Below, piece by piece: positions 4,891 through 35,629 of a DNA stretch of 64,000 nt; the stretch's first letter is position 1; each line of letters opens with the position of its first letter. The position numbers and the translations under genes are program-made. Below the pieces are notes generated by a model. It saw only the letters and a list, made by a program, of their open reading frames with translations, had not been told where the DNA came from and made no database searches. This DNA is from an uncultured Parasphingorhabdus sp. (GTDB lineage: Bacteria; Pseudomonadota; Alphaproteobacteria; Sphingomonadales; Sphingomonadaceae): the NCBI GenBank assembly GCA_951813595.1, contig CATOTQ010000003.1, positions 10,860 through 74,859 on the forward strand. The letters run 5' to 3'.

Positions 4891-5859
4891 TCATCTTGCG
4901 CGAAGCATCACTCCGGTGCCCTCTTTATTGGCCCCGTTGATGATCACGCCCGGAATTTTGAGGCCCCCGCAGCAGTTAACGCCTCGCTCCAGGCAGCCAA
5001 TTCCCTGATATTCATTGGCGGAAAACTCCATGAGTCCCTCAAAGCCGATCCATTCAGAGTGACTCACAATCCCGCCGCCCAGAAAATTTCTGAATTGAAG
5101 GTCAAAGCGTTTGCCATCCTGCGTTTCAAGCCAGCCCTGCGCTTCGGTAAAGCTTACGCCGTCGACTTCCATGAGTGGTCTCAGCTCCCAGTCTTTAAGC
5201 GGCGTCAACTTTCCATTTTCAACGATAAAGCCGCATTTCATCAGCTGGCCAGGAAACATAGCTACGGATGTGGCGAAGAAAGAAAATTCCTCGCCGGTCG
5301 TGCCGTTGATCCAGTTGCTTGTCTGAATTTCGTGAGTGTCGCGCGGACCCCATGAATGGTCGCGATGTCCGACACCGGATATTTCGGCCGTCTTTTCGCC
5401 GATTTCAATCTTGCCTGTCACTGTTCCGGCCACTTCGAAATGAGCGGAAGATATATCGTCCATCATTCCGCCAAAAGCAGACAGGTCCATATAGGCTTCC
5501 AGTGGTGCGGCTTCGTAAAGATCGGTAAAGACGAGTTCTGCACGAAAATCATCCTGAGCAACCGAGCAGCTCCATCCGCCTTTCTCAATATGCTGGAGGG
5601 TTAACCCGTCCACACTATATTTACCGTCTTCGCGCATCCATGCCGCATAGGGAATGCTGTGGCTGGTGCGCCTGGTGTATCGACCATCATCGGCGATAAG
5701 GATGTTCCAGATATGCGCCGTTCCGGCATTGGGTTGATGCGCTATGCGATGAAGGCCGGAAAAGCCTGTGTCTTTGTCAGCCCACCAGAACCATTGCGAT
5801 TCATTCCAACTTTTTTCAGGTCCCGCCGCGAGGGGTTTGCGGACTTCGATTACGCTCAT
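4891..5859 (-). CDS. uncharacterised conserved protein, U-family paralog 1 (RDHSWG motif)
   Basis: Paralog of 15387, 18228 and 36304. Motifs WNESQWFWW and GHRDHSWGPRD. The ATG at 5859 with a GGAGAG RBS is preferred over the ORF-track start at 5907. It lies immediately upstream of a P450 in the same operon. Confidence 0.75.
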   Translation of the reverse strand: MSVIEVRKPLAAGPEKSWNESQWFWWADKDTGFSGLHRIAHQPNAGTAHIWNILIADDGRYTRRTSHSIPYAAWMREDGKYSVDGLTLQHIEKGGWSCSVAQDDFRAELVFTDLYEAAPLEAYMDLSAFGGMMDDISSAHFEVAGTVTGKIEIGEKTAEISGVGHRDHSWGPRDTHEIQTSNWINGTTGEEFSFFATSVAMFPGQLMKCGFIVENGKLTPLKDWELRPLMEVDGVSFTEAQGWLETQDGKRFDLQFRNFLGGGIVSHSEWIGFEGLMEFSANEYQGIGCLERGVNCCGGLKIPGVIINGANKEGTGVMLRAR

Positions 5860-6089
5860 TTTTCTCTCCGTGGCCGACGATCGAGCAATTAACATGCAGT
5901 TCGCCATAAACCCATTGGCTACCGACGGCCATGCAATCCGCCGATTCCAAACTTCACCAGAATTTCAAATTTATTAATATATCAGTCAATATAATAATAT
6001 TGTCAAGTTGGAGTTTGCGGTATTGGCAACCTTTCACTGTTCTTAGCTAAATGTGAGTATTTCCAGCCAGCTCAACAGCCGTTGCGAAG

Positions 6090-11876: not shown

Positions 11877-12848
11877 CTATGCGATATATTTGTCGTAGAA
11901 TCGAGCATAATTATCGTAGGTAAACGCGATACCATCCTGACCGACAGGCGTGTTGGGATAGACCTGCTCATGGCCATGCGGGCAGCCTTTATAGAGCTTG
12001 AACGCAACATCCACTCCTTCGGCCTTCAGACTGTCAACATATTCGACTGTTTCCCGGTAAAATGGATCAAAGGTGCCAACAAAGGTAATTGTTGGAGGAA
12101 AATCTCGATAATCAGTGTTCCGGGCCGGTGCTGCATAGGTGGGAATCTCCTCCCCACGTTCATGCAAATCCTTCAGATAACTGCCCCAACCAAAGGCATT
12201 GGCTTTGCTGTCCCAACCGGGCACATCGATGAACCGCTCCGGGTCTGACGGCTGCAAATCGTCAATCATCGGATAGAAAGGCATTTGGAAAGCGATATTC
12301 ACGTCTTTCGTGTCGCGCGCTTTCAATGTGACCGCCGCGGTCAGCCCGCCGCCCGCACTATGCCCGGCAATCATGAACTTGTCAGGATCAATACCAAGCT
12401 CAGCTGCGTTGTCTCGCATCCAGAGCAATGCATCATAGCAATCGTCAAATGCTGCGGGATACGGTTTGACCAGCGCTGTGCGATAGGCGGGGGCCACAAT
12501 CACACACGGTCTACGTTCAATGAAATCGGCAATATGCCCGTCAAATACATCAGGGGACCCGGACACATATCCGCCACCATGCGTATAAAGCATCGGTGGC
12601 AAGTCGCCTGTTTGTGAAACCGGCCGGTATATCTTGAGACGAATCTTCGACTCCCCATCTCGGGTAGGCAGAAACCGTTCTTCGATGCTCACTGTATCCG
12701 GCACTCCACTTTTCAGCATTTTACCCAAAATTGCGTTTGCGAATCCCATTCGGCGCTTCCCCCGGTAAAGGTACTTTCCCATAGTCGCGAACACATACAT
12801 CGGGAACGAACGCAGATCTTGATGGAGCATTCGTCGGATTACTTTCAT
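11877..12848 (-). CDS. alpha/beta hydrolase, hormone-sensitive-lipase-type carboxylesterase
   Basis: Oxyanion HGGGY (LYTHGGGYVSG) and nucleophile elbow GHSAGGGL. Confidence 0.85.
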   Translation of the reverse strand: MKVIRRMLHQDLRSFPMYVFATMGKYLYRGKRRMGFANAILGKMLKSGVPDTVSIEERFLPTRDGESKIRLKIYRPVSQTGDLPPMLYTHGGGYVSGSPDVFDGHIADFIERRPCVIVAPAYRTALVKPYPAAFDDCYDALLWMRDNAAELGIDPDKFMIAGHSAGGGLTAAVTLKARDTKDVNIAFQMPFYPMIDDLQPSDPERFIDVPGWDSKANAFGWGSYLKDLHERGEEIPTYAAPARNTDYRDFPPTITFVGTFDPFYRETVEYVDSLKAEGVDVAFKLYKGCPHGHEQVYPNTPVGQDGIAFTYDNYARFYDKYIA

Positions 12849-13897
12849 GCTTCTTTTGCCTCAGTTTTTCTCTTGCCGTTGCCATTTTGCCGGATCGCAA
12901 TCTCAGAGTCCTCATCGATGTAAGCGAGATCGTAGCGATGACTAAAATGTTGGATTAGCATGTGATTTTGAATCTCCAACACACCATCCTGATTGGCAAT
13001 CTCCCGGCAATGATTTTCAGCAATATTGTGTGACCCGTCGCCATGGGCAATTGCAAGAATGCCATATTCGCCTGATGTCTGCGCGACAAAAACACAGGCT
13101 TCATTGGTGACCAACCAATTTACGACAGTCTCTGTCGCGGCGGGAACGGTCTTGATGCGGATCCAGTCAGTGCTCGACACGCCCACCGCCGCCGGGTTGC
13201 AGACGACGCCTAATCGCAGTTCCTTGTTTTCGAACATTTTTTGCAGCCGCAGGCGAACATTGTTTTCTGAAACATCCAGCCGCCTTGCAATTTCGCGATT
13301 GCTCGTCCGGCCATCAGTCATGAGATAGGCGACTATCTGGTCATCGATCTCCCGGTTACGTTTTGAAGAGGTAGTCTGCGGTAGTTCCGTTGACAAGTTC
13401 CCGACCCCATGCGCGGATTTGGCCACATCTAGCATGAAGTCAGTCGTGATTGACCTTAGTCCGGCAAGGTGATTGATCTCTTCGTTCAATAGTTGATGCA
13501 GATGGGCTTTGCTCCAGGTCCGTATGTTAACGACTAGTTCAGGGCTTCCAGCTGTAAGCGATACATTTATGATACCATCGAGCCGCGATAAATGTCGTGC
13601 GATTGAATCTATCTGGTCAGCCGATACCGACAGATACAGCAGGGCCGTTTCATTATATTTGCCATGATAGATATTGCGTTGTGCTATCACCCGCATGGCG
13701 TTTCGCTTCGACATGGACCGCAGGCGATTGGCGACCGTTGTTTCGGACACGTCTATTGCTTTGGCGATGTGCTTGTTGGAAACCCGAGGATCACTGCGTA
13801 GCAACTGCACAATATTCAGATCGACACCGTCCAACGGTCTAATTTCCGGTTGATACGTCAAACCAACCACGCCCCTTTCTGGTCGTTCCAATAACAA
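12845..13897 (-). CDS. Lrp/AsnC-family regulator with two complete tandem HTH+RAM units
   Basis: Unit 1: LDGVDLNIVQLLRSDPRVSNKHIAKAIDVSETTVANRLRSM. Unit 2: IDDQIVAYLMTDGRTSNREIARRLDVSENNVRLRLQKM. Each is followed by a ~70-aa RAM-like segment. Confidence 0.8.
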   Translation of the reverse strand: MLLERPERGVVGLTYQPEIRPLDGVDLNIVQLLRSDPRVSNKHIAKAIDVSETTVANRLRSMSKRNAMRVIAQRNIYHGKYNETALLYLSVSADQIDSIARHLSRLDGIINVSLTAGSPELVVNIRTWSKAHLHQLLNEEINHLAGLRSITTDFMLDVAKSAHGVGNLSTELPQTTSSKRNREIDDQIVAYLMTDGRTSNREIARRLDVSENNVRLRLQKMFENKELRLGVVCNPAAVGVSSTDWIRIKTVPAATETVVNWLVTNEACVFVAQTSGEYGILAIAHGDGSHNIAENHCREIANQDGVLEIQNHMLIQHFSHRYDLAYIDEDSEIAIRQNGNGKRKTEAKEA

Positions 13898-14142: not shown

Positions 14143-15354
14143 ATGACCAAATTGGCAGAAATGGAAATGCCGTATCTCGATGCGCTCTCTCCAGAGTTTT
14201 TGCAGGATCCGCACAGTCATTACGCGAAGGCGCTGGAGGAGTCGTGGATCGCCCGTTTTGACAATGGCGGCTACATGTTGCTCGACTATCAATCCATGAA
14301 GGATTTCCTTGGCAAGGAAGATTTGGCCGTTTCGCCATTCAAGTATTTTATCGAGCAATGGGGTGCGGAAGATTCGTCCTGGGCCAAATTCCAGATGGAT
14401 CACCCCAACTCATTGAGCGGAAAGGATCACATGCGCCTCAAGACGCTGGTCGCGCCGGCATTTACCAAGCGCCAGGCGGATCAGTTCCGGCCTTTGATGC
14501 GTGAGCGGTTTGAGGCGTTGATCGATGAAGTCGTTGATCAAGGGAAATGTGATTTTGCACGGGTCGCTTGTCAATATCCCATCACGGTTGTCAGCATCAT
14601 GCTGGGTGTGCCTTTGGATGATATACCGAAGTTAGAACCATGGCTACTTGCTCTTGTTGAAGGGCAGGGCCAGGCGGCAGAAAAGCTCGGCATGCTGAAC
14701 GAAGCTGTCGAAGGCCTGCTCGAATTTATTCGTCCCGTCATTGCCGATCGCCGCGCCGGCGAGAACAAGGATGATCTGCTTCAGGCGATGATCGACGCGA
14801 CAGATGAAGGAGATCGGCTAACCGACGAGGAGTTGCATCACTTCGTAATCGGCCTGCTCTCCGGCGGGTATGATACCACTATGAACCAGTTGATTCATAC
14901 TACGCAGCGGATGTGCGAAAACCCGGTCGAGTATCAAAAGCTATTGGATAATCCTGAAGAAAGAAAATACGCCTTTATCGAAGAATCGTTGCGCCTTAAA
15001 TGCATGTTCGGCACCACTGCTCGGGCAACAACAGAGGAAGTGGAGTATCGCGGTGTCACAATTCCCAAAAATACCCTGCTCACAATACCTCTGACATTTT
15101 CTGGTCAGGATCCCTCGCAAAATAAATGTCCGGCGGAATTCAATCCTGACCGTGAAACCTCGGTCCATTTGGCTTGGGGACACGGCATTCATTTCTGTCC
15201 GGGTAAACAGGTCGCAATGGCGCTTCTAGAAGAAGCCGTTCCGGTGGTTGCCCAGCGCCTGCGTAATCCGCGCCTGGTCGGAAAACGCGAATATGTAGGG
15301 CCGTTTGGTCCATGGGCTTTGCGGTCAATGCCGATCGAATGGGACCTTGACTGA
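14143..15354 (+). CDS. cytochrome P450 (family A, 403 aa)
   Basis: LLSGGYDTTMN, EESLRL, HLAWGHGIHFCPGKQVA (Trp at the Phe position). Confidence 0.9.
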   Translation: MTKLAEMEMPYLDALSPEFLQDPHSHYAKALEESWIARFDNGGYMLLDYQSMKDFLGKEDLAVSPFKYFIEQWGAEDSSWAKFQMDHPNSLSGKDHMRLKTLVAPAFTKRQADQFRPLMRERFEALIDEVVDQGKCDFARVACQYPITVVSIMLGVPLDDIPKLEPWLLALVEGQGQAAEKLGMLNEAVEGLLEFIRPVIADRRAGENKDDLLQAMIDATDEGDRLTDEELHHFVIGLLSGGYDTTMNQLIHTTQRMCENPVEYQKLLDNPEERKYAFIEESLRLKCMFGTTARATTEEVEYRGVTIPKNTLLTIPLTFSGQDPSQNKCPAEFNPDRETSVHLAWGHGIHFCPGKQVAMALLEEAVPVVAQRLRNPRLVGKREYVGPFGPWALRSMPIEWDLD

Positions 15355-15386
15355 GCTTCGGTCGTAACAGAACAGAGGGAAGTGCA

Positions 15387-16394
15387 ATGACAAACTTCGC
15401 ACCAGAAGGTTTCGATCCTGTCGCTGACATGAATCATCAGAGACCCGATAACACACCCGGTTGGACGGAAAGCTATGCGTTCTGGGCTTATTGGGAGGGT
15501 CGCTATCTATATATGCATTATCAGCGCCACCCAGAGCAGAGCAGCATGTGGCGCGGGCTTGCAGTAGTAAGTGGTGAAGATGGCAGCATCGTTGCCGCGC
15601 ACAGTTTTGGCCGCGAATATTCGCCCTTTGGGCCTGGTTTTGAGCAAATTCACGCCATTTGTGAACGTCCTTTTGAATCCTACAGGGTTGAAGTCGATAC
15701 AATCGGTCAGGTTAGCGATCGTAAAACTGTACGGCAGAACTTTTTGCCGAGCTTGGGCAACGATCTCACCCCGCTTAAGCTGGAACTGCTATTCACTTCG
15801 GTTTCGGAAACATATTCTCCTATCAGAGGTGAGGCAGCGGGCGCCAAGTCGGTGGCGAAGTGGACACATTACACGCCCTGTAAGGTCCATGGCTATGTCA
15901 CAATCGGTGATGAGCGGGTCTATATTGATACCTTGGGATTCCGCGATCATTCATCCGGCGTAAGGTCATTCGAAAAAATGGGCACCGGCTATATGCATAC
16001 GGGTATTTTCCCCAGCGGCCGCAGCTATATGGCGCTTGGCATTCGCAGCCAAGACGATGATGGCAATATGCAATTTGCCTCCATGGGCGGTCTGACAATT
16101 GACGGGAAAGTCTACTACGCCAACAATATCGAGGTTCACGATAACACAATCTGTATCCCTGAGCCTGGTATGGAGCTCGGCCAGCTCAAATTTGAAACTG
16201 ATGCGGGCGAGGCTGTGATCAATCTTAATGTCACAGGCCAGGGCTTTCCACTGACCAATTTGCCGCCATGTTACGAAGCGGTGGGAATGCGACATCAGAA
16301 TGGCGATCTGGTCTATCATGATTGGCGACTGGACATTGAATGGGATGGCGAAAAAGGTATCGGCGGATGGGAGACCTGTGTCCGCTTGGACTAG
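15387..16394 (+). CDS. uncharacterised conserved protein, U-family paralog 2
   Basis: GWTESYAFWAYWEGRYLYMHYQRHPE, GFRDHSSGVRS, RLDIEWDGEKGIGGWE. Close paralog of 36304..37341. Confidence 0.8.
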   Translation: MTNFAPEGFDPVADMNHQRPDNTPGWTESYAFWAYWEGRYLYMHYQRHPEQSSMWRGLAVVSGEDGSIVAAHSFGREYSPFGPGFEQIHAICERPFESYRVEVDTIGQVSDRKTVRQNFLPSLGNDLTPLKLELLFTSVSETYSPIRGEAAGAKSVAKWTHYTPCKVHGYVTIGDERVYIDTLGFRDHSSGVRSFEKMGTGYMHTGIFPSGRSYMALGIRSQDDDGNMQFASMGGLTIDGKVYYANNIEVHDNTICIPEPGMELGQLKFETDAGEAVINLNVTGQGFPLTNLPPCYEAVGMRHQNGDLVYHDWRLDIEWDGEKGIGGWETCVRLD

Positions 16395-16459
16395 GGAATT
16401 TGACGCCGAAGATTTTTGTCGCAGGAAATTTAATTGAATAAGTTGAGAGGGAGAATTTC

Positions 16460-17146
16460 GTGGCCAATGGCCAAATCATCATCGTGAATGGCACTTCGGG
16501 TGCAGGCAAAACCACGACCATCACCAAATTCGCCGAGCGGGCGGACGAAGCTTATATGATGTTCGGCATCGATCAGCTGATGGGGCAGCTTCTGCCAGTG
16601 AAATTTTCGGGTTTCGGTGCCCGTGCGACTGAAGGTATGCATTTTGTCCCGAACGACCCGAATGATCCCGACAGTCCTCTACACGCCGAATTTGGTGACG
16701 TAGCGCAAAAGGCGCTCTCGGCCTTTCATGACATGATCGTCGCAGCATCAAGAGCCGGGCAAAATGTGATTGCTGACCACATCATGTTTCTCGAACCTCC
16801 TGTCTTGCAGGACTGCATCTGGCGATTGAAAGATGTTCCGGTGCTCTATGTTGCCGTAAAGCCGCCCCGCGAAATACCGATTGCCCGTCAAGCGACCCGT
16901 GAGGTCGATTTACCTGAGCAATATGCCGAAGAGCTTGGCGAGGATGCGCGCAAGGAAATCGCGAGAAGCATGGAGCGGATGGCCGGTTGGTTCTATGACG
17001 CAGCATATGAAAATGACTGTTATGATCTGGTCATTGATTCAGACAAATATAGCCCCGATGAGGTTTGTGAACAAATCGAGCAGCGCCTTGCAGAAGGCCC
17101 AGGTACAGCCTTTCAAACATTGCGCGATCAGTACCCGAAGGCATAG
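16460..17146 (+). CDS. P-loop kinase, chloramphenicol-phosphotransferase-like (CPT) family
   Basis: GTG start. IIIVNGTSGAGKTTTITKFAE Walker A at the extreme N-terminus; ~228 aa, a CPT-like layout. Confidence 0.6.
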   Translation: MANGQIIIVNGTSGAGKTTTITKFAERADEAYMMFGIDQLMGQLLPVKFSGFGARATEGMHFVPNDPNDPDSPLHAEFGDVAQKALSAFHDMIVAASRAGQNVIADHIMFLEPPVLQDCIWRLKDVPVLYVAVKPPREIPIARQATREVDLPEQYAEELGEDARKEIARSMERMAGWFYDAAYENDCYDLVIDSDKYSPDEVCEQIEQRLAEGPGTAFQTLRDQYPKA

Positions 17147-17160
17147 GCGAGGATATTAAT

Positions 17161-18258
17161 ATGGCTGACGACACGAAACTGGATGCTGCCTTCGAATCTC
17201 AGACGATGGCGCTGAAGCCAGACTTCAAAGAGATCACCCCAGACAGCATCGCTGCGCTGCTGAAAGATCACTATGGCGATGGCAGCCAGATCGAGTTGAC
17301 CGATGTGCAGGGCGGCAGCGAAATGTCTGGCATGTCGAGCGGCATTGTCATCTTCGATGCGAAGATTGGCGGCGAGGCAGCAGAGTTCGTTCTTCGTTAT
17401 GCGCCGCTCAACAATCCGGGACGGATCTTTGCCGAATATAATATCGAAGGTCAGTATCACCTGCACGGAGTTCTCAACGAAGCGGGGCTTCCTGTGCCTA
17501 GATCGGTGTGCTGCGATGCAGCGGGCGAAATTCTCCCGCTTCCCGGCTTCATCATGAATCGGGTTGAAGGACGAGCTCCTGACAATCCCGCTTACACGAG
17601 CGGAATTTTCGCCGAGGCCACCCCAGAACAGCGCGATTCCTACCGAGATGATACGTTGAAAGCGCTGGACCAATTACACAATCTCGATTGGCAAAAGCTG
17701 GGATTGGAGCGCTTTTGCAGCCTAGCCGATGAGGGGAAGACCCTGATCGAGCGCCATCTCAACTGGTTCTGGAAAACCGCACAATGGTCAGGGCTCGACC
17801 CCCAATCTCTCTCGCGGATTGAGCGGCTCAAGCAATGGCTTATCGCCAATGATCCGAACTATCACCGCGACGATATGACGATGACGCATGGCGATTCCAA
17901 CCTTGCGAATTACATGTTTAATGATGGCAAGTTGGTAGCAATGCTTGATTGGGAGATCGCAGCAATCGCCCAGCCTGCATTGGATGTGCTCGGGCAGTGC
18001 GATTTTATCGACTATTGCCGCAGCATCTCTCCTCCCGAAGTTCAGCAAATCATTCCCAGCCGCGAATCCTGGATCGCGCGCTACGAAGAAATTTCGGGCA
18101 AACGCCTTAGGGATATGGAGTATTTTGAGAGATTGCGCGGATATACCGGTCTTGTGATCATGACATCAATTCTGCGTTCGATCCCGAAAGAGCATCAGGA
18201 GACCTATTCGACTGTCCTCGAACCGCTTTGGGCGCATGCGGATGCGGTTACCACTTGA
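17161..18258 (+). CDS. aminoglycoside-phosphotransferase-fold (APH/ACAD10-LvaA-like) small-molecule kinase
   Basis: Catalytic loop MTHGDSNLANYMF followed by LDWEIAAIAQP (the HGD..N ... DWE pattern). Confidence 0.8.
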   Translation: MADDTKLDAAFESQTMALKPDFKEITPDSIAALLKDHYGDGSQIELTDVQGGSEMSGMSSGIVIFDAKIGGEAAEFVLRYAPLNNPGRIFAEYNIEGQYHLHGVLNEAGLPVPRSVCCDAAGEILPLPGFIMNRVEGRAPDNPAYTSGIFAEATPEQRDSYRDDTLKALDQLHNLDWQKLGLERFCSLADEGKTLIERHLNWFWKTAQWSGLDPQSLSRIERLKQWLIANDPNYHRDDMTMTHGDSNLANYMFNDGKLVAMLDWEIAAIAQPALDVLGQCDFIDYCRSISPPEVQQIIPSRESWIARYEEISGKRLRDMEYFERLRGYTGLVIMTSILRSIPKEHQETYSTVLEPLWAHADAVTT

Positions 18259-19283
18259 ACTTTGGAGAATGCACTTTGACTTATGACGAAAGCTGGAATT
18301 GCCCCCACCAGCCTGGCGAAGACATTAGCTGGCAGGAAAGTGACTGCTACTGGTTTTTTGATAATGAAGCCAGGGTGGGCGGATATCACCGTATAGGCCA
18401 GACGCCCAATAAAGAAGGCGGTGCTGGTCAGATTATGTCCTTCTTCTTTAAGGAAGGCGGGCAATATTTCCGTCAGGTAACCGAAATTCCTGCTGACCAG
18501 TGCAGTCGTAGCGAAACCGGCCAGATTGTTGGACCGCATGCAGTGAAGAGCCTGGGCGATGACTGCATGCATTACAGTTTCTCCGACCCGGATTGTGAAG
18601 TTGACCTTCAATTTTGTGAACAATTTTACACGCCCCGCAATTGGATGAAGGAGGAGAGCGAAGATCTGGAGGCGATAGAAGAAGGCTTTAATTCCGATGG
18701 CCATCTGGAGGTGGCCGGGCGCGTGAAAGGCCGGGTACGTATTGGCGATCACGAATATGAAATCAACGCTCTGGCGCAACGTGACCGATCCTGGGGAAAT
18801 CGTGACTGGTCAACCGCGCGGCAGGGCAGGCAGATTACCGGCACTATCGGCCACAAATTGTCCTGGACCGCTGTTGTAGGCCAGCTGGAACAACGCAGCG
18901 TTGTTTTCAAGGTCGGGTTCGTGGCGCGTAATGGCGAGACAACCGATATCAAAGATATCAAGGTTCTGGCTTCGATTGACTATGATGGTCTTTCGGTTGG
19001 AGCAATGAAGGTTCGGCTGGAACTGGAAGATGGTAGCCATGAAGATTTGACAGGCAATTCCATGCAAGGCTTCTTGTCCTTTTGGCTGTCAGAAACCTCC
19101 TCTATGGTCTGTTCGCACAATTTGATTGAAGCGGAGCATAAAGACGGTGTTGGAATGTCAAATTTTGACTGCACAATCCGGCCCCGCAAAGGCGACTATA
19201 TCCCGACCGAGGCGGATGTTTCCCTAACCCGTATTGCGGAGGGGCTTAATGATGCTGCAGACTATTCGACGCTGCGATGGTAG
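18228..19283 (+). CDS. uncharacterised conserved protein, U-family paralog 3
   Basis: SWQESDCYWFFD, GHLEVAGRVKGRVRIG, AQRDRSWGNRDW. The true start is probably TTG 18276 (GGAGAA RBS) rather than 18228, which overlaps the kinase gene. Confidence 0.75.
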   Translation: MGACGCGYHLNFGECTLTYDESWNCPHQPGEDISWQESDCYWFFDNEARVGGYHRIGQTPNKEGGAGQIMSFFFKEGGQYFRQVTEIPADQCSRSETGQIVGPHAVKSLGDDCMHYSFSDPDCEVDLQFCEQFYTPRNWMKEESEDLEAIEEGFNSDGHLEVAGRVKGRVRIGDHEYEINALAQRDRSWGNRDWSTARQGRQITGTIGHKLSWTAVVGQLEQRSVVFKVGFVARNGETTDIKDIKVLASIDYDGLSVGAMKVRLELEDGSHEDLTGNSMQGFLSFWLSETSSMVCSHNLIEAEHKDGVGMSNFDCTIRPRKGDYIPTEADVSLTRIAEGLNDAADYSTLRW

Positions 19284-19328
19284 CGACGGGCATTGAGTAC
19301 AATGCGACTGGATTGAGAGATAAATCAC

Positions 19329-20543
19329 ATGCAAAACATCAATGAAATAGAAATTCCTGAACTGAATATTCTCAGTCGCGATTTTTCGGACGATATATTT
19401 ACCCACTATGAAGATGCGGTAAAAAAGCACTGGCTGGCGCGATCTCCGGTTGGTTACATGGTTCTGGGCTTTCAGGAAATGAAAGACATGCTGGCCATGG
19501 ATGACATTCTTGTGCCGGGAAACAAGGAAACAACCAAGTTGCTCGGCGCTGAAGGAACAAGTTTCGGCGAATTCAACGACAACTTCCTGCTTGCGCTGAG
19601 CGGCGAGGATCATGCCCGTTTACGCGGGCTGGCGGCGTCAACCTTCACGCCCAAAAGTGCCAACAACAGCCGTCCCATGATGCGCGAGACATTCGAGAGC
19701 CAACTCGATCAGTGGCTCCCAAAGGGCAAATTTGACTTTGCCGAATTTGTGGCCGCCTATCCCATCTCGGTAATGTGTAACCTTATCGGTGCAAAGTCTG
19801 AAGATGTGCCGCGATTTATCGATTTGCTGGAGACCATAAATACCAATTTCAACGACATGCTCGAAAATATGCCACGGATATGCGAGGCTATAGATTCCCT
19901 GATGGGATATTTTGGCGAGCTTATTTCAGCCAGACGCGAAATGGATGATCCAGATCGTGAAAAAGATTTGCTGGATCGATTGCTGGAAGCTCATGAAGGC
20001 GGTGACCGATTGTCGGACCAAGAACTCAACAACCTGCTCGGGGTAATCTACCTGGCGGGTTATGACACGTCCAAAAACCTGCTCACCCTGATTATGAACC
20101 TTCTGCTTGATAATCCGGACTTGTGGGCGAAATTGGAAAGTGATCCCGGTTATGCGAGTGATATTGTTGATGAGGCGCTGCGCTATTCGACCGTGGTTAC
20201 GGTGGTAAGGCTCGTCAAGGAGGAGTTCACCTATAAGGGCGTCACCTTCCCTGCCGGTACAAGGGTCCTGCTTCCAACAACCTTTGCCGGCCGGGATGAG
20301 GGGGTTTTCAAGGACCCGAAAATATTTGATCCAGAACGAGTTCCCGAAGAGAAGGTTTTTCCCTTTGGCCGGGGCAAGCATATTTGCATAGGCATGTTTA
20401 TCGCAAGGGCGCAAATTGAGGAAGCACTGCCGATTTTGGTAAAACGGATGAAAAATCCAAGACGTGATGGCGATATTGAGTGGCGCGATTTCATGCCGAT
20501 TACAGGTTTGAAACACCTACCAATCGCTTTCGACGCTGCTTAA
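19329..20543 (+). CDS. cytochrome P450 (family A, 404 aa)
   Basis: YLAGYDTSKN, DEALRY, FPFGRGKHICIGMFIA. Confidence 0.9.
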   Translation: MQNINEIEIPELNILSRDFSDDIFTHYEDAVKKHWLARSPVGYMVLGFQEMKDMLAMDDILVPGNKETTKLLGAEGTSFGEFNDNFLLALSGEDHARLRGLAASTFTPKSANNSRPMMRETFESQLDQWLPKGKFDFAEFVAAYPISVMCNLIGAKSEDVPRFIDLLETINTNFNDMLENMPRICEAIDSLMGYFGELISARREMDDPDREKDLLDRLLEAHEGGDRLSDQELNNLLGVIYLAGYDTSKNLLTLIMNLLLDNPDLWAKLESDPGYASDIVDEALRYSTVVTVVRLVKEEFTYKGVTFPAGTRVLLPTTFAGRDEGVFKDPKIFDPERVPEEKVFPFGRGKHICIGMFIARAQIEEALPILVKRMKNPRRDGDIEWRDFMPITGLKHLPIAFDAA

Positions 20544-20555
20544 TCACAAGGTTTC

Positions 20556-21338
20556 TTGCCGATGCCAAAACTCGAAGGGAAAGTTGCCATTATAACCGGT
20601 GCTAGCGCCGGCATAGGTTTGGGTGTCGCCAAGCGTTTTGCCAAGGAAGGTGCTGTCGTTGCCATGTGCGCGCGCACCCCGGAAACGTTGGAAAAAGCTG
20701 CAGATGAGGTGCGGGCCGTCGGCGGCAAGGTAATCCATAAGACTTGCGATGTGACTTCTTATGATGAGATCGATCCTTTTCTGGAGCTTGTGCTGCGCGA
20801 GGCGGGTACGATTGATATTTTGGTCAACAATGCTGCGTATATGCCAACCGAGCATAATATGCTCGAGGGGTTGGACGAGAGTGAATATCTGTCTGGCCTG
20901 GAAGGCGCAATCCACTCAACCTACCGTATGATGCAGCGCGTTTTTCCTGTCATGAAAGAGAAGGGGCGGGGTAAAATCATCAATTTCACCTCTCTGGGCG
21001 GCATAAGAGGTGTGCAGGGTACGGGCGGATACGCCGCAGGCAAAATGGCGATCATTGGTATTTCCCGCGTTGCCGCCAATGAGTGGGGGAAATACGGCAT
21101 CAACGTGAATTGCGTCGCGCCAATGTCGATGACGACTGGCTGGTCCGAGCTTATGAAAACACTTCCCGAAGGAAGCGATCCTTGGGAAGCCGTCGGCACC
21201 CGAGGGAATGCCCTGGGATATGTTGGCGATCCGGAAAAACATATTGCACCGCCCGTAGCTTTCTTGGCTAGCGACGATGCCGACTATATCACCGGCCATG
21301 TCATGCCGCTTGATGGCGGTTTGGTAGATTTGGAATAG
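20556..21338 (+). CDS. SDR oxidoreductase
   Basis: ITGASAGIGLG, NNAA, YAAGKMA. Confidence 0.9.
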   Translation: MPMPKLEGKVAIITGASAGIGLGVAKRFAKEGAVVAMCARTPETLEKAADEVRAVGGKVIHKTCDVTSYDEIDPFLELVLREAGTIDILVNNAAYMPTEHNMLEGLDESEYLSGLEGAIHSTYRMMQRVFPVMKEKGRGKIINFTSLGGIRGVQGTGGYAAGKMAIIGISRVAANEWGKYGINVNCVAPMSMTTGWSELMKTLPEGSDPWEAVGTRGNALGYVGDPEKHIAPPVAFLASDDADYITGHVMPLDGGLVDLE

Positions 21339-21393: not shown

Positions 21394-21765
21394 ATGACAC
21401 CACAAGAAACGGTAGAGTCCTTTATCCAAGCCTGGAACGACATGGATCTGGACACCGCTTATGCGATGATGGCGGAAGATATTGTCTGGCACAATATACC
21501 CATGGAACCTGCTATCGGAGTAGAGGGGGCCAAGAAGCTGATGGAAGGCTTTCCTCCGATTGTGAAAATCGATTGGAAAACCCACCATATCGCAGTTAAT
21601 GGCAATGTCGTGCAGACCGAGCGCACTGACAGCTTTACCTTTGAAAACGGCAAGACGGCCTCGATCCGCCTTATGGGAATATTTGAAGTTGATGCCGATG
21701 GGAAAATCGCAAAGTGGCGTGACTATTTTGATATGCTGGAATTTCAGCGTGAATTTGGCGGGTAA
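21394..21765 (+). CDS. NTF2-fold protein, limonene-1,2-epoxide hydrolase / SnoaL-like
   Basis: 123 aa. ETVESFIQAWNDMDLDTAYAMMAEDIVWHNIPMEP and C-terminal GKIAKWRDYFD resemble the LEH family. Confidence 0.6.
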   Translation: MTPQETVESFIQAWNDMDLDTAYAMMAEDIVWHNIPMEPAIGVEGAKKLMEGFPPIVKIDWKTHHIAVNGNVVQTERTDSFTFENGKTASIRLMGIFEVDADGKIAKWRDYFDMLEFQREFGG

Positions 21766-21770: not shown

Positions 21771-22709
21771 ATGAACGATCCCAAGAATAATTCCTTCAGA
21801 TATGATGACCGTGTGGTCGTTGTGACCGGCGCTGGCGGAGGCATTGGACGCGCCCATGCACTGGCCTTTGCCTGTCAGGGTGCCAAGGTTGTTGTCAATG
21901 ATCTGGGTGTCAGTATTGAGGGCGGCGAGCTGGATGACAATAGTCGTAGCGCGGACAGGATCGTTGCGGAAATCAAGAAGTCGGGCGGTGAGGCGATCGC
22001 GAACTATTCAGCGGTGGAGTCGGGGCATGAGATTGTCGAACAGGCAATGGACAGTTATGGCCGGATAGATGTGCTGATCAACAATGCCGGAATCGTTTTT
22101 CCCGCTCCTTTTTCTGACATGACCTTTGAACAATGGCGCAAAATGTTGGGCGTTCACCTCGACGGATCATTTAACTGTGCCAAGGCTGCATGGCCGCATA
22201 TGCAGGTCAATAGATACGGCCGGATTATCATGACCGCCTCGCCGGTTATGTATGGTGCGGAGTATCTGGCGCATTATAGTGCAGCCAAAGCAGCGATGCC
22301 GGGCCTTGCAAATTCCCTCGCTGCGGAAGGTGCCCCATTCAACATCAACAGCAACACCATAGTACCTACGGCAATGAGCAGGATGATTTCGCAAGGCTTG
22401 CCGACCACAGATTTGTCAAAGCTGTCCATTGACCCTGGCGACATCGCGCAACTGGCCATGTGGCTGTGCCATGAAGATTCAAATGAAAGCGGAGGGATAT
22501 ATGAAGTCGGCGGCGGATTTATTGCCAAAATGAGATATGCGCATAGCAAGGGTGTGAAGTTGAAAGCAGGCGCTTTTTCTGCGCAGGATATTGAAGACAA
22601 GAAGGACGATATCGATAATTTTGAAGCGCCATTTTATCCCGAAGATTCCGCCGAAATGACGAGGCGGACAGGGCTGGACCTTGAGAATCTTGCTGCTTTT
22701 GGAGAATAA
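21771..22709 (+). CDS. SDR, MFE-2 / 17beta-HSD4-type (3R)-hydroxyacyl-CoA dehydrogenase-like
   Basis: FRYDDRVVVVTGAGGGIGRAHALAFACQGAKVVVNDLG is the typical MFE-2 N-terminus. YSAAKAA. Confidence 0.75.
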   Translation: MNDPKNNSFRYDDRVVVVTGAGGGIGRAHALAFACQGAKVVVNDLGVSIEGGELDDNSRSADRIVAEIKKSGGEAIANYSAVESGHEIVEQAMDSYGRIDVLINNAGIVFPAPFSDMTFEQWRKMLGVHLDGSFNCAKAAWPHMQVNRYGRIIMTASPVMYGAEYLAHYSAAKAAMPGLANSLAAEGAPFNINSNTIVPTAMSRMISQGLPTTDLSKLSIDPGDIAQLAMWLCHEDSNESGGIYEVGGGFIAKMRYAHSKGVKLKAGAFSAQDIEDKKDDIDNFEAPFYPEDSAEMTRRTGLDLENLAAFGE

Positions 22710-34522: not shown

Positions 34523-35629
34523 CTATGCCGACATCGTTTCAGCCATCATCGCAATTGGAGGCGCTTGCTCGTTAACGAATGTCGCCCATTCTTCATCCGG
34601 TAAGTCAGAACGCATTGTCATGAACCGCGCGTACAATATCCCGCATTGCCAAGCGGCATAGATACGATAAAAGCGCAACTTGGCCATGTCAATGTCGCGC
34701 CCCAGTGCCTTGCTGTAAATCTCGATCATTTCATCATATGAGGGCCATCCGGGCAATGAAGGTGTTTCGCCCATTGCTTCGGTGCTACGCAGAAACTGAA
34801 GATCAAAGGTGAGCCAGAAACCCAGATCGGTCTCAGGCTCTCCGCAGCTGACCAGATCCCAGTCGATAATGGCATTACATTTGTCAAGTTGAAACAACAT
34901 GTTCCCCGGCCGTGCATCACCCCATGATACGACGAGGTCGGACTGTTGCGGTTTATTGTCTTCAAGCCACTGGCGTGTTTCTTTTACCAAATCGAGCGGC
35001 TCATCTCGCCAACCCACGGCGGTAAATCGATCCCAACGGGCGATATCCCAGTCTAATTCGCTCTGGCCCGGAGCCGCGCGCAATAGAAAATCAGCACCAA
35101 GCTGGTCTATCGTTTTGCTATGCAGTTTGGCCAGCGCTTCAAGGCCCGACACACAAACGGCGCGCTGCTGTTCTTCAGAGGCATCCTTTACCCAGCCGCC
35201 CGCATAAAAGGGCGGTCGATCTGGCGTTGGTTCGCCCGGCACAAAACCCAATATATAGAAAGGTGATCCGGCAACAGATGGATCGGCCTCATATCCATAT
35301 GTCGGCGCCACAGGCGCGTGTCCCGTGGTATGCAGCAATTCCTGAATGCGATACTCCGCCTCGAAATCGTGATCGGGGAAGTAGATAAGCTTGGTCGGTT
35401 TACGCTTCAGCAGATATTTCTGCTCGCCGGCTTCAGGCGTAGACACTGCGATGATGAAGGATTCGCCAGCAAATCCGTTTGCTTCACTCGAAGTTGGCTC
35501 GACGGATTGCAATGTGGCGGTGCCATTGATTTGCAAATTGGTTCCAACCCATTGAGACAACGAATCGAAATACCTATCCAAATCCCTTGTTTGTGGTTTC
35601 TCGCCTAAAGATTGCTGGGTATCTACCAT
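34523..35629 (-). CDS. APH-fold phosphotransferase (small-molecule kinase), second copy
   Basis: VVSWGDARPGNMLF...AIIDWDLVSCGEPETDLGFW (catalytic-loop D..N and DWD pattern). Confidence 0.75.
   Translation of the reverse strand: MVDTQQSLGEKPQTRDLDRYFDSLSQWVGTNLQINGTATLQSVEPTSSEANGFAGESFIIAVSTPEAGEQKYLLKRKPTKLIYFPDHDFEAEYRIQELLHTTGHAPVAPTYGYEADPSVAGSPFYILGFVPGEPTPDRPPFYAGGWVKDASEEQQRAVCVSGLEALAKLHSKTIDQLGADFLLRAAPGQSELDWDIARWDRFTAVGWRDEPLDLVKETRQWLEDNKPQQSDLVVSWGDARPGNMLFQLDKCNAIIDWDLVSCGEPETDLGFWLTFDLQFLRSTEAMGETPSLPGWPSYDEMIEIYSKALGRDIDMAKLRFYRIYAAWQCGILYARFMTMRSDLPDEEWATFVNEQAPPIAMMAETMSA

What the first reader, a model, noticed from the sequence alone, without database searches (positions are those of the whole stretch)
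14143..20543. Mirror-image module: P450 / unknown protein / two small-molecule kinases / unknown protein / P450
Six co-directional, tightly packed genes (gaps of 12-65 nt). In order: P450 (14143-15354), U-protein (15387-16394), CPT-like P-loop kinase (16460-17146), APH-fold kinase (17161-18258), a second U-protein (18228/18276-19283) and a second P450 (19329-20543). The operon continues into an SDR, an LEH-like NTF2 protein and an MFE-2-type SDR. Kinases are not usual members of P450 / beta-oxidation-type catabolic clusters. There is an established precedent: APH-family LvaA (Pseudomonas levulinate pathway) and the kinase domains of ACAD10/ACAD11 phosphorylate a hydroxyacyl-CoA. An acyl-CoA-dehydrogenase-fold partner then eliminates the phosphate. 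This window has no ACAD-fold gene, but the U-protein sits next to or near kinases repeatedly. Hypothesis: P450 hydroxylation, then ATP-dependent phosphorylation of the new alcohol, then phosphate elimination or rearrangement by the U-protein. That would be an activated-leaving-group route to dehydrate unactivated alcohols on a terpenoid or steroid-like skeleton.
Basis: partly seen in the sequence, partly recalled or inferred. Interest (0 to 1): 0.8.

Follow-up and report, generated by a model that had tools for sequence, protein, structure and literature searches.

The report
P450-linked kinase–phosphate-lyase dehydration module
Two unknown proteins in this bacterial operon are distant relatives of a recently solved enzyme that removes phosphate from a phosphorylated steroid alcohol to make a double bond, and they sit beside two kinases and two P450 oxygenases, so the operon probably removes stubborn alcohol groups by phosphorylating them first, a route known so far from one oxygen-free cholesterol pathway.

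Summary
Six co-directional genes lie at the stated coordinates: P450, U1, CPT-like P-loop kinase, APH-fold kinase, U2 (true start 18276), P450. The order recurs in at least three other organisms.

The two "unknown" proteins are divergent paralogues (about 19% identity). U2 matches Pfam DUF7065+DUF7064. U1 is a sub-threshold relative.

For both AlphaFold models, the best PDB match is 25-phosphosteroid lyase (25-PSL, released January 2026). This is the phosphate-eliminating partner of 25-hydroxysteroid kinase in Sterolibacterium. U2 and 25-PSL share the motif RDRSWGxR (profile-profile probability 95.7%).

In 32 genomes from four bacterial groups, 40 of 59 U genes have an APH-family kinase gene within 300 bp. 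Four protein clusters, at least one probably fungal, are natural APH–DUF7065–DUF7064 fusions. The best sequence match of APH1 in the PDB is M. tuberculosis Rv3168, and U2 weakly matches the Rv3169 family.

Three parts remain inferred:
- the role of the P450s
- the CPT–U1 pairing
- the substrate

No biochemistry exists for this family. I rate it a new variant of a known kind.

The parts
12845..13897 (-). Tandem AsnC/Lrp-type transcriptional regulator, divergent from the module. It is the probable regulator.
   Evidence: Pfam HTH_AsnC-type x2 plus AsnC_trans_reg. AsnC-type regulators are found within 5 kb of U2 relatives among the neighbours of 23 non-redundant loci (6 ORFs), and one lies in L003.
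14143..15354 (+). Cytochrome P450 'a' (403 aa)
   Evidence: PF00067, 2e-21. Haem loop WGHGIHFCPG. Orthologues are 65-77% identical and hold the same position in L001, L046 and L047.
15387..16394 (+). U1: divergent member of the 25-PSL / DUF7065-DUF7064 superfamily. Candidate phosphoester C-O lyase.
   Evidence: DUF7065 is sub-threshold at 9e-4. hhalign against the U2 family gives 94% probability, E 1.2e-7. The AF2 model has pLDDT 87 and its top five Foldseek hits are 25-PSL. Motifs WTES at residue 26 and RDHSSGVR at residues 186-193.
16460..17146 (+). CPT-like P-loop small-molecule kinase (228 aa)
   Evidence: PF07931, 5e-24. It fails the NCBIfam chloramphenicol phosphotransferase equivalog (38.6 bits against a cutoff of 250). 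Walker A GTSGAGKT. It is adjacent to U1 in all four versions of the module.
17161..18258 (+). APH-fold small-molecule kinase APH1 (365 aa), Rv3168-like
   Evidence: PF01636, 1e-18. Best PDB sequence hits are Rv3168 (3ats/3att, 3e-24), 9fsg 'APH-like protein' (4e-21) and the ACAD11 kinase domain (5e-11). Motifs HGDSNLAN at 243-250 and LDWE at 262.
18276..19283 (+). U2: DUF7065+DUF7064 protein, remote homologue of 25-phosphosteroid lyase. Candidate phosphoester C-O lyase partnered with APH1.
   Evidence: Pfam 1e-22 and 3e-13. AF2 pLDDT 92.4; Foldseek top hit 9g4c/9fzn, E 1e-10, TM 0.61. hhalign against the 25-PSL family gives 95.7% probability. Motif RDRSWGNR at residues 169-176. APH adjacency statistics.
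19329..20543 (+). Cytochrome P450 'b' (404 aa)
   Evidence: PF00067, 3e-36. Haem loop FGRGKHICIG. Best PDB hit 3p3l/3p3o, 1e-59. Orthologues are 54-80% identical and hold the same position elsewhere.
20556..21338 (+). Short-chain dehydrogenase (operon continuation)
   Evidence: adh_short_C2, 2.5e-50. An SDR also follows the module in L001.
21394..21765 (+). LEH/SnoaL-type NTF2 protein (limonene-epoxide-hydrolase-like)
   Evidence: PF07858, 1e-21. It is absent in L001. L047 has an alpha/beta epoxide hydrolase downstream instead.
21771..22709 (+). Second SDR (312 aa). Probable end of the operon.
   Evidence: adh_short, 3.5e-36. A 312-aa SDR is conserved in L001. A terminator-like hairpin lies at 22719-22732 (the number of such sites is not above shuffles).
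4891..5907 (-). U3: third DUF7065+DUF7064 paralogue, first gene of a U3-P450-SDR operon
   Evidence: Pfam 7e-28 and 1.6e-13. 27% identical to U2. Motif RDHSWGPR at residues 182-189.
34523..35629 (-). APH2: second APH-fold kinase (variant motif WGDARPGN)
   Evidence: PF01636, 7e-23. 25% identical to APH1. 30% identical to the APH that occupies the module's APH slot in L047.
36304..37341 (-). X: fourth U paralogue (U1 subfamily, 48% identical to U1), 675 nt from APH2
   Evidence: BLASTP 6e-121 to U1. No Pfam hit. Motif RDHSTGGR at residues 189-196.

Best explanation
The module encodes ATP-driven dehydration of poorly reactive alcohols by a kinase-plus-lyase mechanism, combined with P450 oxygenation, inside a large island for catabolism of an imported hydrophobic compound.

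**Proposed steps.**
1. A small-molecule kinase transfers the gamma-phosphate of ATP to a hydroxyl group. This is most plausibly a tertiary or otherwise non-oxidisable alcohol on an isoprenoid- or steroid-like skeleton.
2. A cofactor-free, double-beta-barrel lyase of the 25-phosphosteroid-lyase superfamily (U2, and by inference U1) then expels phosphate and a proton to give an alkene.
3. APH1+U2 form one unit and CPT+U1 a second.
4. The flanking P450s either create the alcohol by C-H hydroxylation or oxidise the resulting alkene at the allylic position or to an epoxide.
5. The downstream epoxide-hydrolase-like protein and the SDRs process that product.

**Shown here.**
- Gene content and its conservation.
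- Remote homology of U1 and U2 to 25-PSL, by fold and by a shared motif.
- Intact kinase motifs.
- Strong APH-U adjacency, and APH-U fusion proteins.

**Inferred.**
- The lyase activity itself.
- The CPT-U1 pairing.
- The order of P450 and kinase steps.
- The class of substrate.
For: **Homology of U2 to 25-PSL.**
- The U2 model (pLDDT 92.4) has 25-phosphosteroid lyase as best Foldseek PDB hit (9g4c, 9fzn, 9g2i): E 1e-10, probability 1.00, TM 0.61, about 355 aligned columns.
- The U2 family profile reaches only 25-PSL among all PDB sequences. It aligns U2 'RDRSWGvR' with 25-PSL 'RDRSWGVR'.
- hhalign of the U2 family against a 25-PSL family alignment gives 95.7% probability, E 9e-9.
- 25-PSL fragments hit only DUF7065 (N-terminal half) and DUF7064 (C-terminal half) in Pfam, which is the same domain order.

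**U1.**
- The U1 model (pLDDT 87) has 25-PSL chains as its top five hits.
- U1 family against U2 family gives 94% probability.
- W-x-E-S and R-D-[RH]-S-x-G-x-R are invariant across U1, U2, U3 and X.

**Gene context.**
- In 32 genome loci from Alpha-, Beta- and Gammaproteobacteria and Actinomycetota, 40 of 59 U genes have an APH gene within 300 bp and 53 of 59 within 5 kb. The background is 2 APH genes in 190 kb.
- Four representative clusters of 836-882 aa are APH-DUF7065-DUF7064 fusions. One was checked on its contigs and is a continuous ORF on two of them.
- The best PDB sequence hit of APH1 is Rv3168, and U1 and U2 weakly match the NCBIfam Rv3169 family. Consecutive locus tags imply that the pair is also adjacent in M. 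tuberculosis.
- The module is conserved in L001, L046 and L047.

**Precedent.** 25-hydroxysteroid kinase, a phosphotransferase-family protein, phosphorylates a tertiary steroid alcohol, and a separate C-O lyase eliminates the phosphate to give the delta-24 alkene (PMC8449060, PMC7411048, PMC11061730).
Against: - Homology to 25-PSL is remote: about 12% identity, TM 0.57-0.62, rmsd 5.5-8 A. The same fold also houses cofactor-free hydratases (kievitone hydratase), the AttH protein and fungal Diels-Alderases, all with E 1e-7 to 1e-10.
- U1 against the 25-PSL family is weak by sequence alone: 33% probability.
- I could not see the 25-PSL paper or its coordinates, so the role of the shared motif in phosphate binding or catalysis is unverified.
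- In Sterolibacterium the kinase gene has no lyase candidate next to it (PMC8449060), so adjacency is not a feature of the one characterised system.
- U1-type and U3 genes often sit next to a P450 without an adjacent kinase.
- L046 lacks the APH gene altogether, and L047 carries a different APH lineage (24% identical) in that slot.
- P450s lie near U2 relatives in only 13 of 31 loci.
- No substrate is known, and none of the context genes reaches a curated family cutoff.
Confidence: 0.55

Rival explanations
1. The kinase-lyase logic is right, but the substrates are hydroxyacyl-CoA thioesters, as in LvaA/LvaC and ACAD10/ACAD11. The APH kinase phosphorylates a hydroxyacyl-CoA, and the U-protein replaces the ACAD-fold partner in eliminating phosphate to give an enoyl-CoA.
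For: APH1 matches the kinase domain of ACAD11 (8v3v, 5e-11) and the APH-fold protein 3dxp. The window holds an acyl-CoA ligase, an enoyl-CoA hydratase, a family III CoA-transferase and a thiolase-like gene. No ACAD-fold gene was found in the window, which leaves the elimination step unassigned.
Against: APH1 is much closer to Rv3168 and 9fsg (E 1e-24 and 1e-21) than to ACAD11. The structural and sequence relative of U is a lyase that acts on a free steroid phosphoester, not on a CoA ester. ACAD10/11-type elimination uses flavin chemistry, which a cofactor-free beta-barrel would lack (established knowledge). ECH and ACAD genes are each found only 3 times among 121 neighbours of U2 relatives.
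Confidence: 0.15
2. The U-proteins are cofactor-free hydratases, dehydratases, isomerases or pericyclases (like CrtC, kievitone hydratase or Fsa2) that act directly on P450 substrates or products. The kinases have a separate role.
For: Kievitone hydratase, AttH and fungal Diels-Alderases share the fold with E 1e-7 to 1e-10. U1-type and U3 genes lie directly next to P450 genes with no adjacent kinase in several loci. L046 has lost the APH gene but keeps U2.
Against: 25-PSL is the top structural hit for both models and the only PDB sequence hit, with a shared motif. This reading would not explain the APH adjacency (68% of U genes) or the APH-U fusions. No Pfam match to the CrtC family appeared for U1, U2, U3, X or the 25-PSL fragments at the E-value limits used.
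Confidence: 0.15
3. The kinases are antibiotic or xenobiotic resistance enzymes (chloramphenicol and aminoglycoside/macrolide phosphotransferases) that happen to lie in this operon. The U-proteins are unrelated passengers.
For: The Pfam families are named after resistance enzymes. The only PDB hit for the P-loop kinase is chloramphenicol phosphotransferase (2e-4).
Against: Both kinases fall far below the NCBIfam resistance equivalogs: CPT 38.6 bits against 250, APH(3') 22 against 205, Mph(C) 18 against 550. The genes are embedded with 12-65 nt spacers in a conserved catabolic operon. APH-U linkage spans several phyla and includes fusions.
Confidence: 0.05
4. Phosphorylation is followed by substitution or rearrangement rather than elimination. 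The U-protein would use the phosphate as a leaving group for cyclisation, hydroxyl transposition or transfer to a nucleophile, in terpene-synthase-like carbocation chemistry.
For: Relatives with the same fold catalyse carbocation-type hydration and cyclisation. Tertiary phosphoesters have a very high group-transfer potential (PMC8449060).
Against: The only characterised relative that acts on a phosphoester eliminates to an alkene (PDB title 9g4c: phosphate plus desmost-1,4-diene-3-one). Nothing in the sequence data separates this reading from elimination.
Confidence: 0.1

Closest known systems
25-hydroxysteroid kinase (25-HSK) plus 25-phosphosteroid lyase (25-PSL) of Sterolibacterium denitrificans (PMC8449060, PMC7411048, PMC11061730; PDB 9fzn, 9g2i, 9g4c)
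   Same: An ATP-dependent kinase of the 'phosphotransferase family' is followed by a separate C-O lyase that expels phosphate to give an alkene. U1 and U2 share the 25-PSL fold, the N-terminal/C-terminal domain order and the RDRSWGxR motif. In Sterolibacterium, hydroxylases act both before and after the dehydration. Here two oxygenase genes flank the kinase and lyase genes.
   Different: Identity is only about 12%. U2 falls in Pfam DUF7065/DUF7064, where 25-PSL is only a fringe match. The hydroxylases here are O2-dependent P450s rather than molybdenum enzymes that use water. There is a second kinase with an unrelated P-loop (CPT) fold and a second, very divergent lyase paralogue. Kinase and lyase genes are adjacent or fused here, but are not linked in Sterolibacterium. 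The substrate is unknown.
LvaA/LvaC (Pseudomonas levulinate pathway) and ACAD10/ACAD11
   Same: An APH-fold kinase activates a hydroxyl as a phosphate for elimination. APH1 matches the ACAD11 kinase domain at 5e-11.
   Different: The elimination partner in those systems is an ACAD-fold flavoenzyme acting on a CoA thioester. No ACAD-fold gene was found here, and the partner is a cofactor-free beta-barrel.
M. tuberculosis Rv3168 (APH-like, PDB 3ats/3att) and Rv3169
   Same: Rv3168 is the best PDB sequence match of APH1 (3e-24). U1 and U2 weakly match the NCBIfam Rv3169 family across the motif region. The consecutive locus tags imply the same kinase-U pairing. A Mycolicibacterium locus has U and APH overlapping by 4 nt (L022).
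   Different: Scores against the Rv3169 family model are far below its cutoff (30.6 against 150). Neither protein has an assigned physiological function in the papers found. There is no P450 linkage.
CrtC carotenoid 1,2-hydratase, kievitone hydratase, the AttH protein and fungal Diels-Alderases (CghA, Fsa2, Phm7)
   Same: The same double-beta-barrel fold. From established knowledge, the hydratases interconvert an isoprenoid alkene and a tertiary alcohol without a cofactor, which is the same carbon chemistry.
   Different: They use no phosphorylated intermediate and no kinase partner. They rank below 25-PSL for U1 and at or below it for U2. No PDB sequence other than 25-PSL scored better than chance-level hits, and no Pfam CrtC match appeared.
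Lanthipeptide and thioamitide dehydration (class III-V kinase plus phospho-Ser/Thr lyase; PMC9486802, PMC10604976)
   Same: The logic is kinase then lyase, and class V systems use an APH-like kinase.
   Different: Those systems act on peptide Ser/Thr. Their lyases have unrelated folds and use beta-elimination next to a carbonyl.

Membership tests
25-phosphosteroid lyase (25-PSL) superfamily | Two-domain, all-beta (double-barrel) fold of the solved enzyme | tested here: met
   U2 model: top hit 9g4c_A, E 1.1e-10, TM 0.61, 355 columns. U1 model: top five hits are 25-PSL chains, E 5e-10, TM 0.57-0.60.
25-phosphosteroid lyase (25-PSL) superfamily | Detectable sequence homology to 25-PSL | tested here: met
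   U2 family: hhalign 95.7% probability, E 9e-9, and 25-PSL is the only PDB sequence hit. U1 family: only 33% probability directly, but 94% to the U2 family, so the link is transitive.
25-phosphosteroid lyase (25-PSL) superfamily | Motif RDRSWGVR (25-PSL residues 175-182) | tested here: met
   U2 RDRSWGNR, U3 RDHSWGPR, U1 RDHSSGVR, X RDHSTGGR. 154 of 187 full-length family members keep RD[RHK]SxGxR. The fusions relax it to RD[HR]x[WY]GxR. The role of the motif in 25-PSL is not known to me.
25-phosphosteroid lyase (25-PSL) superfamily | Catalyses phosphate elimination from an alkyl phosphoester to give an alkene | not testable with these tools
   This needs enzymology. Only PDB entry titles and the 2020-2024 papers were available.
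25-phosphosteroid lyase (25-PSL) superfamily | Works with a phosphotransferase-family (APH-fold) kinase | tested here: met
   APH1 is 17 nt upstream of U2. 40 of 59 U genes have an APH gene within 300 bp. APH-U fusions exist. Whether APH1 is close to 25-HSK itself could not be checked, because the provenance of 9fsg is unknown.
Pfam DUF7065 (PF23213) + DUF7064 (PF23212) | Both domains above the gathering score | tested here: met
   U2: 81.1 and 50.6 bits. U3: 98.4 and 51.5 bits, against cutoffs of 27 and 24.7. Not met for U1 (19.8 bits, DUF7065 only) or X (no hit).
NCBIfam Rv3169 family (NF053593) | Score above the curated cutoff of 150 bits | tested here: not met
   U2 30.6 bits and U1 19.3 bits. 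These are relatives, not members.
Chloramphenicol phosphotransferase CPT (NF033114 equivalog) | Score above the cutoff of 250 bits | tested here: not met
   38.6 bits. It is a member of the broader Pfam CPT family only (85.5 bits against 22).
APH phosphotransferase enzyme family (PF01636) | Domain above the gathering score, with the catalytic HxDxxxxN and downstream Asp | tested here: met
   68.4 bits against 23.2. HGDSNLAN at 243-250 and LDWE at 262-265.
LvaA/LvaC and ACAD10/11-type hydroxyacyl-CoA kinase/eliminase | ACAD-fold partner fused or adjacent | tested here: not met
   No ACAD domain in the module or among the window ORFs scanned. ACAD is found only 3 times among 121 neighbours of U2 relatives.
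CrtC / hydroxyneurosporene synthase-type hydratases | Sequence match to the family | tested here: not met
   No Pfam match other than DUF7065/DUF7064 for U1, U2, U3, X or the 25-PSL fragments. The resemblance is at fold level only.

The most novel reading that the evidence does not exclude
DUF7065/DUF7064 proteins (about 1,500 clusters at 50% identity) are a widespread family of phosphoester C-O lyases. Together with APH-fold kinases, and here also a CPT-fold kinase, they form a general ATP-driven toolkit for dehydrating alcohols that cannot be oxidised. The toolkit would be present in aerobic Proteobacteria, in Actinomycetota (including the M. tuberculosis pair Rv3168/Rv3169) and, as single fused polypeptides, probably in fungi. 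In this module it is combined with two P450s into an aerobic counterpart of the Sterolibacterium hydroxylate-phosphorylate-eliminate-rehydroxylate cascade, which moves or removes a hydroxyl on an unactivated isoprenoid carbon.
Probability: 0.4. Interest if true: 0.8.

Novelty: new variant of a known kind. Interest (0 to 1): 0.66.

Why it matters
ATP-dependent dehydration through a kinase and a phosphate lyase has been demonstrated for small molecules in very few systems. The lyase of the steroid system entered the PDB only in 2026.

If the U-proteins work as proposed, several things follow:
- Two Pfam domains of unknown function, and the M. tuberculosis pair Rv3168/Rv3169, gain a testable biochemical role.
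- The kinase-lyase strategy would turn out to be common in aerobic bacteria that already have oxygenases.
- This would point to a route for degrading tertiary or otherwise non-oxidisable alcohols in terpenoids, sterols and hopanoids.

The module also offers compact enzyme sets (P450 + kinase + lyase) that could be useful for selective desaturation of unactivated carbons in biocatalysis.

Tried and rejected
- **Literature.** Searches for DUF7064, DUF7065 and Rv3169 found no functional study. Searches for a 25-PSL paper or for the PDB codes 9fsg, 9ft5 and 9fu5 found nothing. The catalytic residues of 25-PSL and the identity of 9fsg (possibly 25-HSK) therefore remain unknown.
- **Window contig.** The exact-sequence look-up of the window's own U2 found no contig on record.
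- **25-PSL sequence.** The database search with a 135-aa 25-PSL fragment returned only truncated or frameshifted proteins. I rebuilt partial 25-PSL sequence (residues 48-199 and 230-360) from PDB alignments. Residues 1-47 and 200-229 are missing.
- **U1 subfamily.** The metagenome scan returned only 2 loci, so U1-CPT linkage rests on four to six loci.
- **Substrate.** P450 matches in the PDB are generic CYP107-like. NCBIfam matches of the context genes are all below cutoff. No substrate can be named.
- **Molybdenum enzymes.** I considered that the two Mo enzymes in the window might be S25DH-like steroid hydroxylases. This is rejected as untested and unlikely, because their best matches are Fdh-alpha/PhsA-like and they are about 730 aa long.
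- **Promoters and terminators.** The scan found no more sites than in shuffled sequence.
- **Recent duplication.** A recent tandem or inverted duplication as the origin of the 'mirror image' is rejected because the paralogues are too diverged.

Full report
**1. Observation**

The six ORFs are present on the + strand at the coordinates given, with spacers of 32, 65, 14, 17, 45 and 12 nt. Pfam assigns them as follows:

| Coordinates | Assignment | E-value |
|---|---|---|
| 14143-15354 | P450 | 2e-21 |
| 16460-17146 | CPT-like P-loop kinase | 5e-24 |
| 17161-18258 | APH family | 1e-18 |
| 19329-20543 | P450 | 3e-36 |
| U2 (18276-19283) | DUF7065 + DUF7064 | 1e-22, 3e-13 |
| U1 (15387-16394) | DUF7065, sub-threshold | 9e-4 |

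Downstream come an SDR, an LEH/SnoaL-type NTF2 protein and another SDR.

The U2 start is the ATG at 18276. A public 335-aa protein is identical from there, and homologues share the N-terminus.

The kinases look catalytically competent. The CPT-like kinase has Walker A GTSGAGKT. APH1 has HGDSNLAN followed by LDWE. Both P450s keep the haem cysteine.

The 'mirror image' is a symmetry of gene order, not of DNA, and it is not recent. The P450s are 35% identical, U1 and U2 are about 19% identical and invisible to BLASTP, and the two kinases have different folds.

The order is under selection. P450-U1-CPT-APH-U2-P450 recurs in L001/L002/L042 and in L047, and it recurs without the APH gene in L046. 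P450a, U1, CPT, U2 and P450b are 54-80% identical to those of the window, and the flanks differ.

**2. Surroundings**

The window is a dense catabolic island of a Gram-negative bacterium. The closest U2 relatives from named genomes are a 'Gammaproteobacteria bacterium' MAG and an uncultured Pseudomonadales MAG, both at 53% identity. The island holds:
- seven P450s
- a TonB-dependent receptor
- several SRPBCC lipid-binding proteins
- a Baeyer-Villiger-type monooxygenase and a Rieske oxygenase
- two OYE/FadH-type flavoenzymes
- an acyl-CoA ligase, an enoyl-CoA hydratase, a CoA-transferase and a thiolase-like protein
- esterases
- two molybdopterin oxidoreductases

No ACAD-fold gene was seen. Two more U paralogues are present. 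U3 (4891-5907, -) heads a U3-P450-SDR operon. X (36304-37341, -) is 48% identical to U1 and lies 675 nt from a second APH gene. None of the context genes reaches a curated NCBIfam cutoff, so the substrate cannot be named.

**3. What the U-proteins are**

U2 has no significant sequence match in the PDB as a single sequence. An AlphaFold2 model built from 34 homologues is confident (pLDDT 92.4, pTM 0.92) and all-beta.

Foldseek against the PDB puts 25-phosphosteroid lyase first (9g4c, 9fzn, 9g2i; released January 2026), with E 1e-10, TM 0.61 and 355 columns. Next come AttH NE1406 (about level with 25-PSL for U2), then the fungal Diels-Alderases CghA, Phm7 and Fsa2, and kievitone hydratase.

Sequence evidence agrees:
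- The profile of the U2 family reaches only one plausible PDB sequence, 25-PSL. It aligns 'lahRDRSWGvRd' with 'LGSRDRSWGVRPVG'.
- I recovered 25-PSL residues 48-199 and 230-360 from alignments and built a small family alignment from database fragments.
- hhalign of the U2 family against that alignment gives 95.7% probability, E 9e-9.
- In Pfam the 25-PSL pieces touch only DUF7065 (N-terminal half) and DUF7064 (C-terminal half), both below threshold. A 25-PSL relative passes DUF7064.

U1 has no Pfam assignment, but:
- it is homologous to the U2 family (94% probability, E 1.2e-7)
- its model (pLDDT 87) has 25-PSL chains as its top five hits
- W-x-E-S and R-D-[RH]-S-x-G-x-R are invariant across U1, U2, U3 and X

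All four U paralogues are therefore remote members of the 25-PSL superfamily. The family is of moderate size: 1,462 clusters at 50% identity at E<=1e-3, and 546 at E<=1e-10.

**4. What 25-PSL is**

In Sterolibacterium denitrificans, the tertiary 25-hydroxyl of a steroid side chain is phosphorylated by 25-hydroxysteroid kinase, a 40-kDa 'phosphotransferase family' protein. A separate C-O lyase eliminates the phosphate to give the delta-24 alkene. A second hydroxylase then attacks the allylic C26 (PMC7411048, PMC8449060, PMC11061730).

The lyase gene was still unknown in the 2021 paper and was called 'putative' in 2024. The only information on it available to me is the set of PDB entry titles, one of which includes a complex with phosphate and desmost-1,4-diene-3-one. 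No paper on it is in the library.

**5. Linkage to kinases**

I fetched 32 genome loci that encode U2 relatives. They come from Alpha-, Beta- and Gammaproteobacteria and Actinomycetota. I annotated them with phmmer using the window's proteins as queries. Results:
- Of 59 U genes, 40 have an APH-family gene within 300 bp and 53 within 5 kb.
- Of the 31 central U genes, 19 are directly adjacent to an APH gene, and 28 have one in the locus.
- In the 190 kb lying more than 5 kb from any U gene there are only 2 APH genes.
- Some loci carry arrays. Sphingopyxis has 3 U and 4 APH genes in 12 kb.
- In a Mycolicibacterium locus, U and APH overlap by 4 nt.

Four representative clusters of 836-882 aa are APH-DUF7065-DUF7064 fusions with intact kinase motifs. 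One is a continuous ORF on two independent contigs and lies near a gene with a fungal transcription-factor domain.

The best PDB sequence match of APH1 is M. tuberculosis Rv3168 (3e-24). U1 and U2 weakly match the NCBIfam Rv3169 family, so the pair appears to exist in M. tuberculosis as well. This inference rests on the consecutive locus tags.

ACAD genes are rare near U2 relatives (3 of 121 neighbouring ORFs). The frequent neighbours are TonB receptors (11), SDRs (9), Amidohydro_3 proteins (9), AsnC-type regulators (6), PEP-utiliser-domain proteins (6) and P450s (5).

**6. The P450s and the P-loop kinase**

P450 linkage is real but not universal. A P450 lies within 10 kb in 13 of 31 U2-type loci.

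The rare U1 subfamily gave only 15 database hits and 2 metagenome loci. It always lies directly downstream of a P450.

The CPT-like kinase is directly adjacent to U1 in all four versions of the module. It is 6-10 kb away in the two other U1 loci. It occurs in only 2 of 31 U2-type loci. This suggests CPT-U1 and APH-U2 as the two kinase-lyase units, but the sample is small.

The APH slot is the plastic part of the module. The APH is 60% identical in L001. In L047 it is replaced by a different lineage, 24% identical to APH1 and 30% to APH2. In L046 it is absent. Either the kinases are partly interchangeable or the CPT-like kinase can serve both lyases.

**7. Mechanism proposed**

- Step 1 (inferred): a P450 hydroxylates an unactivated carbon, or the substrate already carries a non-oxidisable alcohol.
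- Step 2 (supported by family membership and intact motifs): the kinase phosphorylates the hydroxyl.
- Step 3 (supported by homology, adjacency and fusion): the U-protein eliminates phosphate to give an alkene. By analogy with the relatives that handle tertiary isoprenoid centres, this probably proceeds through a carbocation-like transition state.
- Step 4 (speculative): the second P450 oxidises the alkene at the allylic position or to an epoxide.

An epoxide-hydrolase-type gene follows the module in the window (LEH fold) and in L047 (alpha/beta fold). That would fit an epoxide route, but L001 has none in view.

I put 0.55 on the kinase-lyase core, and less on the full sequence of steps.

**8. 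Rivals**

- (a) The same logic applied to hydroxyacyl-CoA substrates (0.15).
- (b) U-proteins act as ATP-independent hydratases, isomerases or cyclases (0.15). This is favoured by kinase-less P450-U pairs and by the fold relatives. It is disfavoured by the linkage and the fusions.
- (c) Substitution or rearrangement instead of elimination (0.10).
- (d) Antibiotic-resistance kinases (0.05). These are excluded as equivalogs by NCBIfam scores.

**9. Comparison and novelty**

The module works like the 25-HSK/25-PSL system, and its U-proteins belong to the same superfamily. It differs in five ways:
- about 12% identity, and a different Pfam placement
- P450s in place of molybdenum hydroxylases
- an additional P-loop kinase
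- a second, highly divergent lyase paralogue
- tight linkage or fusion of kinase and lyase

I found no literature on DUF7064, DUF7065 or Rv3169 function. I rate it a new variant of a known kind. The caveat is that the unpublished or unavailable 25-PSL paper may already discuss distant relatives.

**10. Verdict**

The substrate, the role of the P450s and the pairing of kinases with lyases remain to be shown. Interest 0.66.

Noticed in passing
window 29980-31166 and 37467-38653: An exact 1,187-bp direct duplicate, 100% identical, with 7,487 nt start-to-start spacing. Each copy carries two SRPBCC (Polyketide_cyc2) genes of 173 and 175 aa. The 6.3 kb between the copies holds the TonB receptor, another SRPBCC gene, APH2, a SnoaL_4 gene and the U1 paralogue X. 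This is either a very recent duplication or an assembly artefact.
   Followed up: partly
P0205, P0222, P0226, P0249; L044:2636-5245, L045:113-2722: Natural fusion proteins of 836-882 aa: an N-terminal APH kinase domain joined to C-terminal DUF7065+DUF7064. The one fusion whose contigs were fetched (P0205) lies near a gene with a Fungal_trans domain, so it is probably fungal. The lyase motif is relaxed to RD[HR]x[WY]GxR.
   Followed up: partly
L047:2171-3277 and L046:11760-11941: Within otherwise orthologous copies of the six-gene module, the APH slot is occupied by a different APH lineage in L047 (24% identical to APH1, 30% to APH2). It is empty in L046, which has a 180-nt gap and a 50-aa ORF there.
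   Followed up: partly
window 22940-25135 (-) and 41724-43913 (-); L001:1936-5312; L046:14819-16771: Two cytoplasmic-type molybdopterin oxidoreductases of about 730 aa, with an N-terminal 4Fe-4S domain, sit inside the P450 island. They are nearest to Fdh-alpha/PhsA but far below cutoffs. Selenocysteine machinery genes flank the module in other organisms: SelA and SelB in L001, SelB in L046. Their role is unknown.
   Followed up: no
window 21394-21765; L047:8170-9315: Epoxide-hydrolase-type genes of two unrelated folds lie downstream of the module in two organisms: LEH/NTF2 in the window and EHN alpha/beta in L047. This hints at an epoxide intermediate. L001 has none in view.
   Followed up: no
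L009-L013, L035 (Sphingopyxis), about 90-12290: Arrays of three U genes and four APH genes within 12 kb. Several Hyphomonas and Caulobacteraceae loci also carry two to four U-APH pairs.
   Followed up: no
23 non-redundant loci of U2 relatives (alignment A6): Among the 121 neighbouring ORFs within 5 kb of U2 relatives there are 9 Amidohydro_3 proteins and 6 PEP-utiliser mobile-domain proteins (3 of these with PPDK_N). The latter are another kind of phosphotransferase. The meaning is unexplained.
   Followed up: no
L040:8001-8988 and L041:8001-9123: Close homologues of true 25-PSL (about 60-63% identical) are split by frameshifts in long-read assemblies. In L040 the gene lies beside thiolase, ChsH2-type OB-fold, ACAD and CoA-transferase genes and a sulfotransferase. 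In L041 it lies beside a P450 and a sulfatase. Neither has an adjacent APH gene.
   Followed up: no
window 3638-58144: Seven P450 genes lie in 64 kb. Five belong to one 34-49% identical group (a, b, c, f, g), and two are longer and distinct (d, e). A truncated ferredoxin-reductase-like ORF lies at 62723-63502.
   Followed up: no
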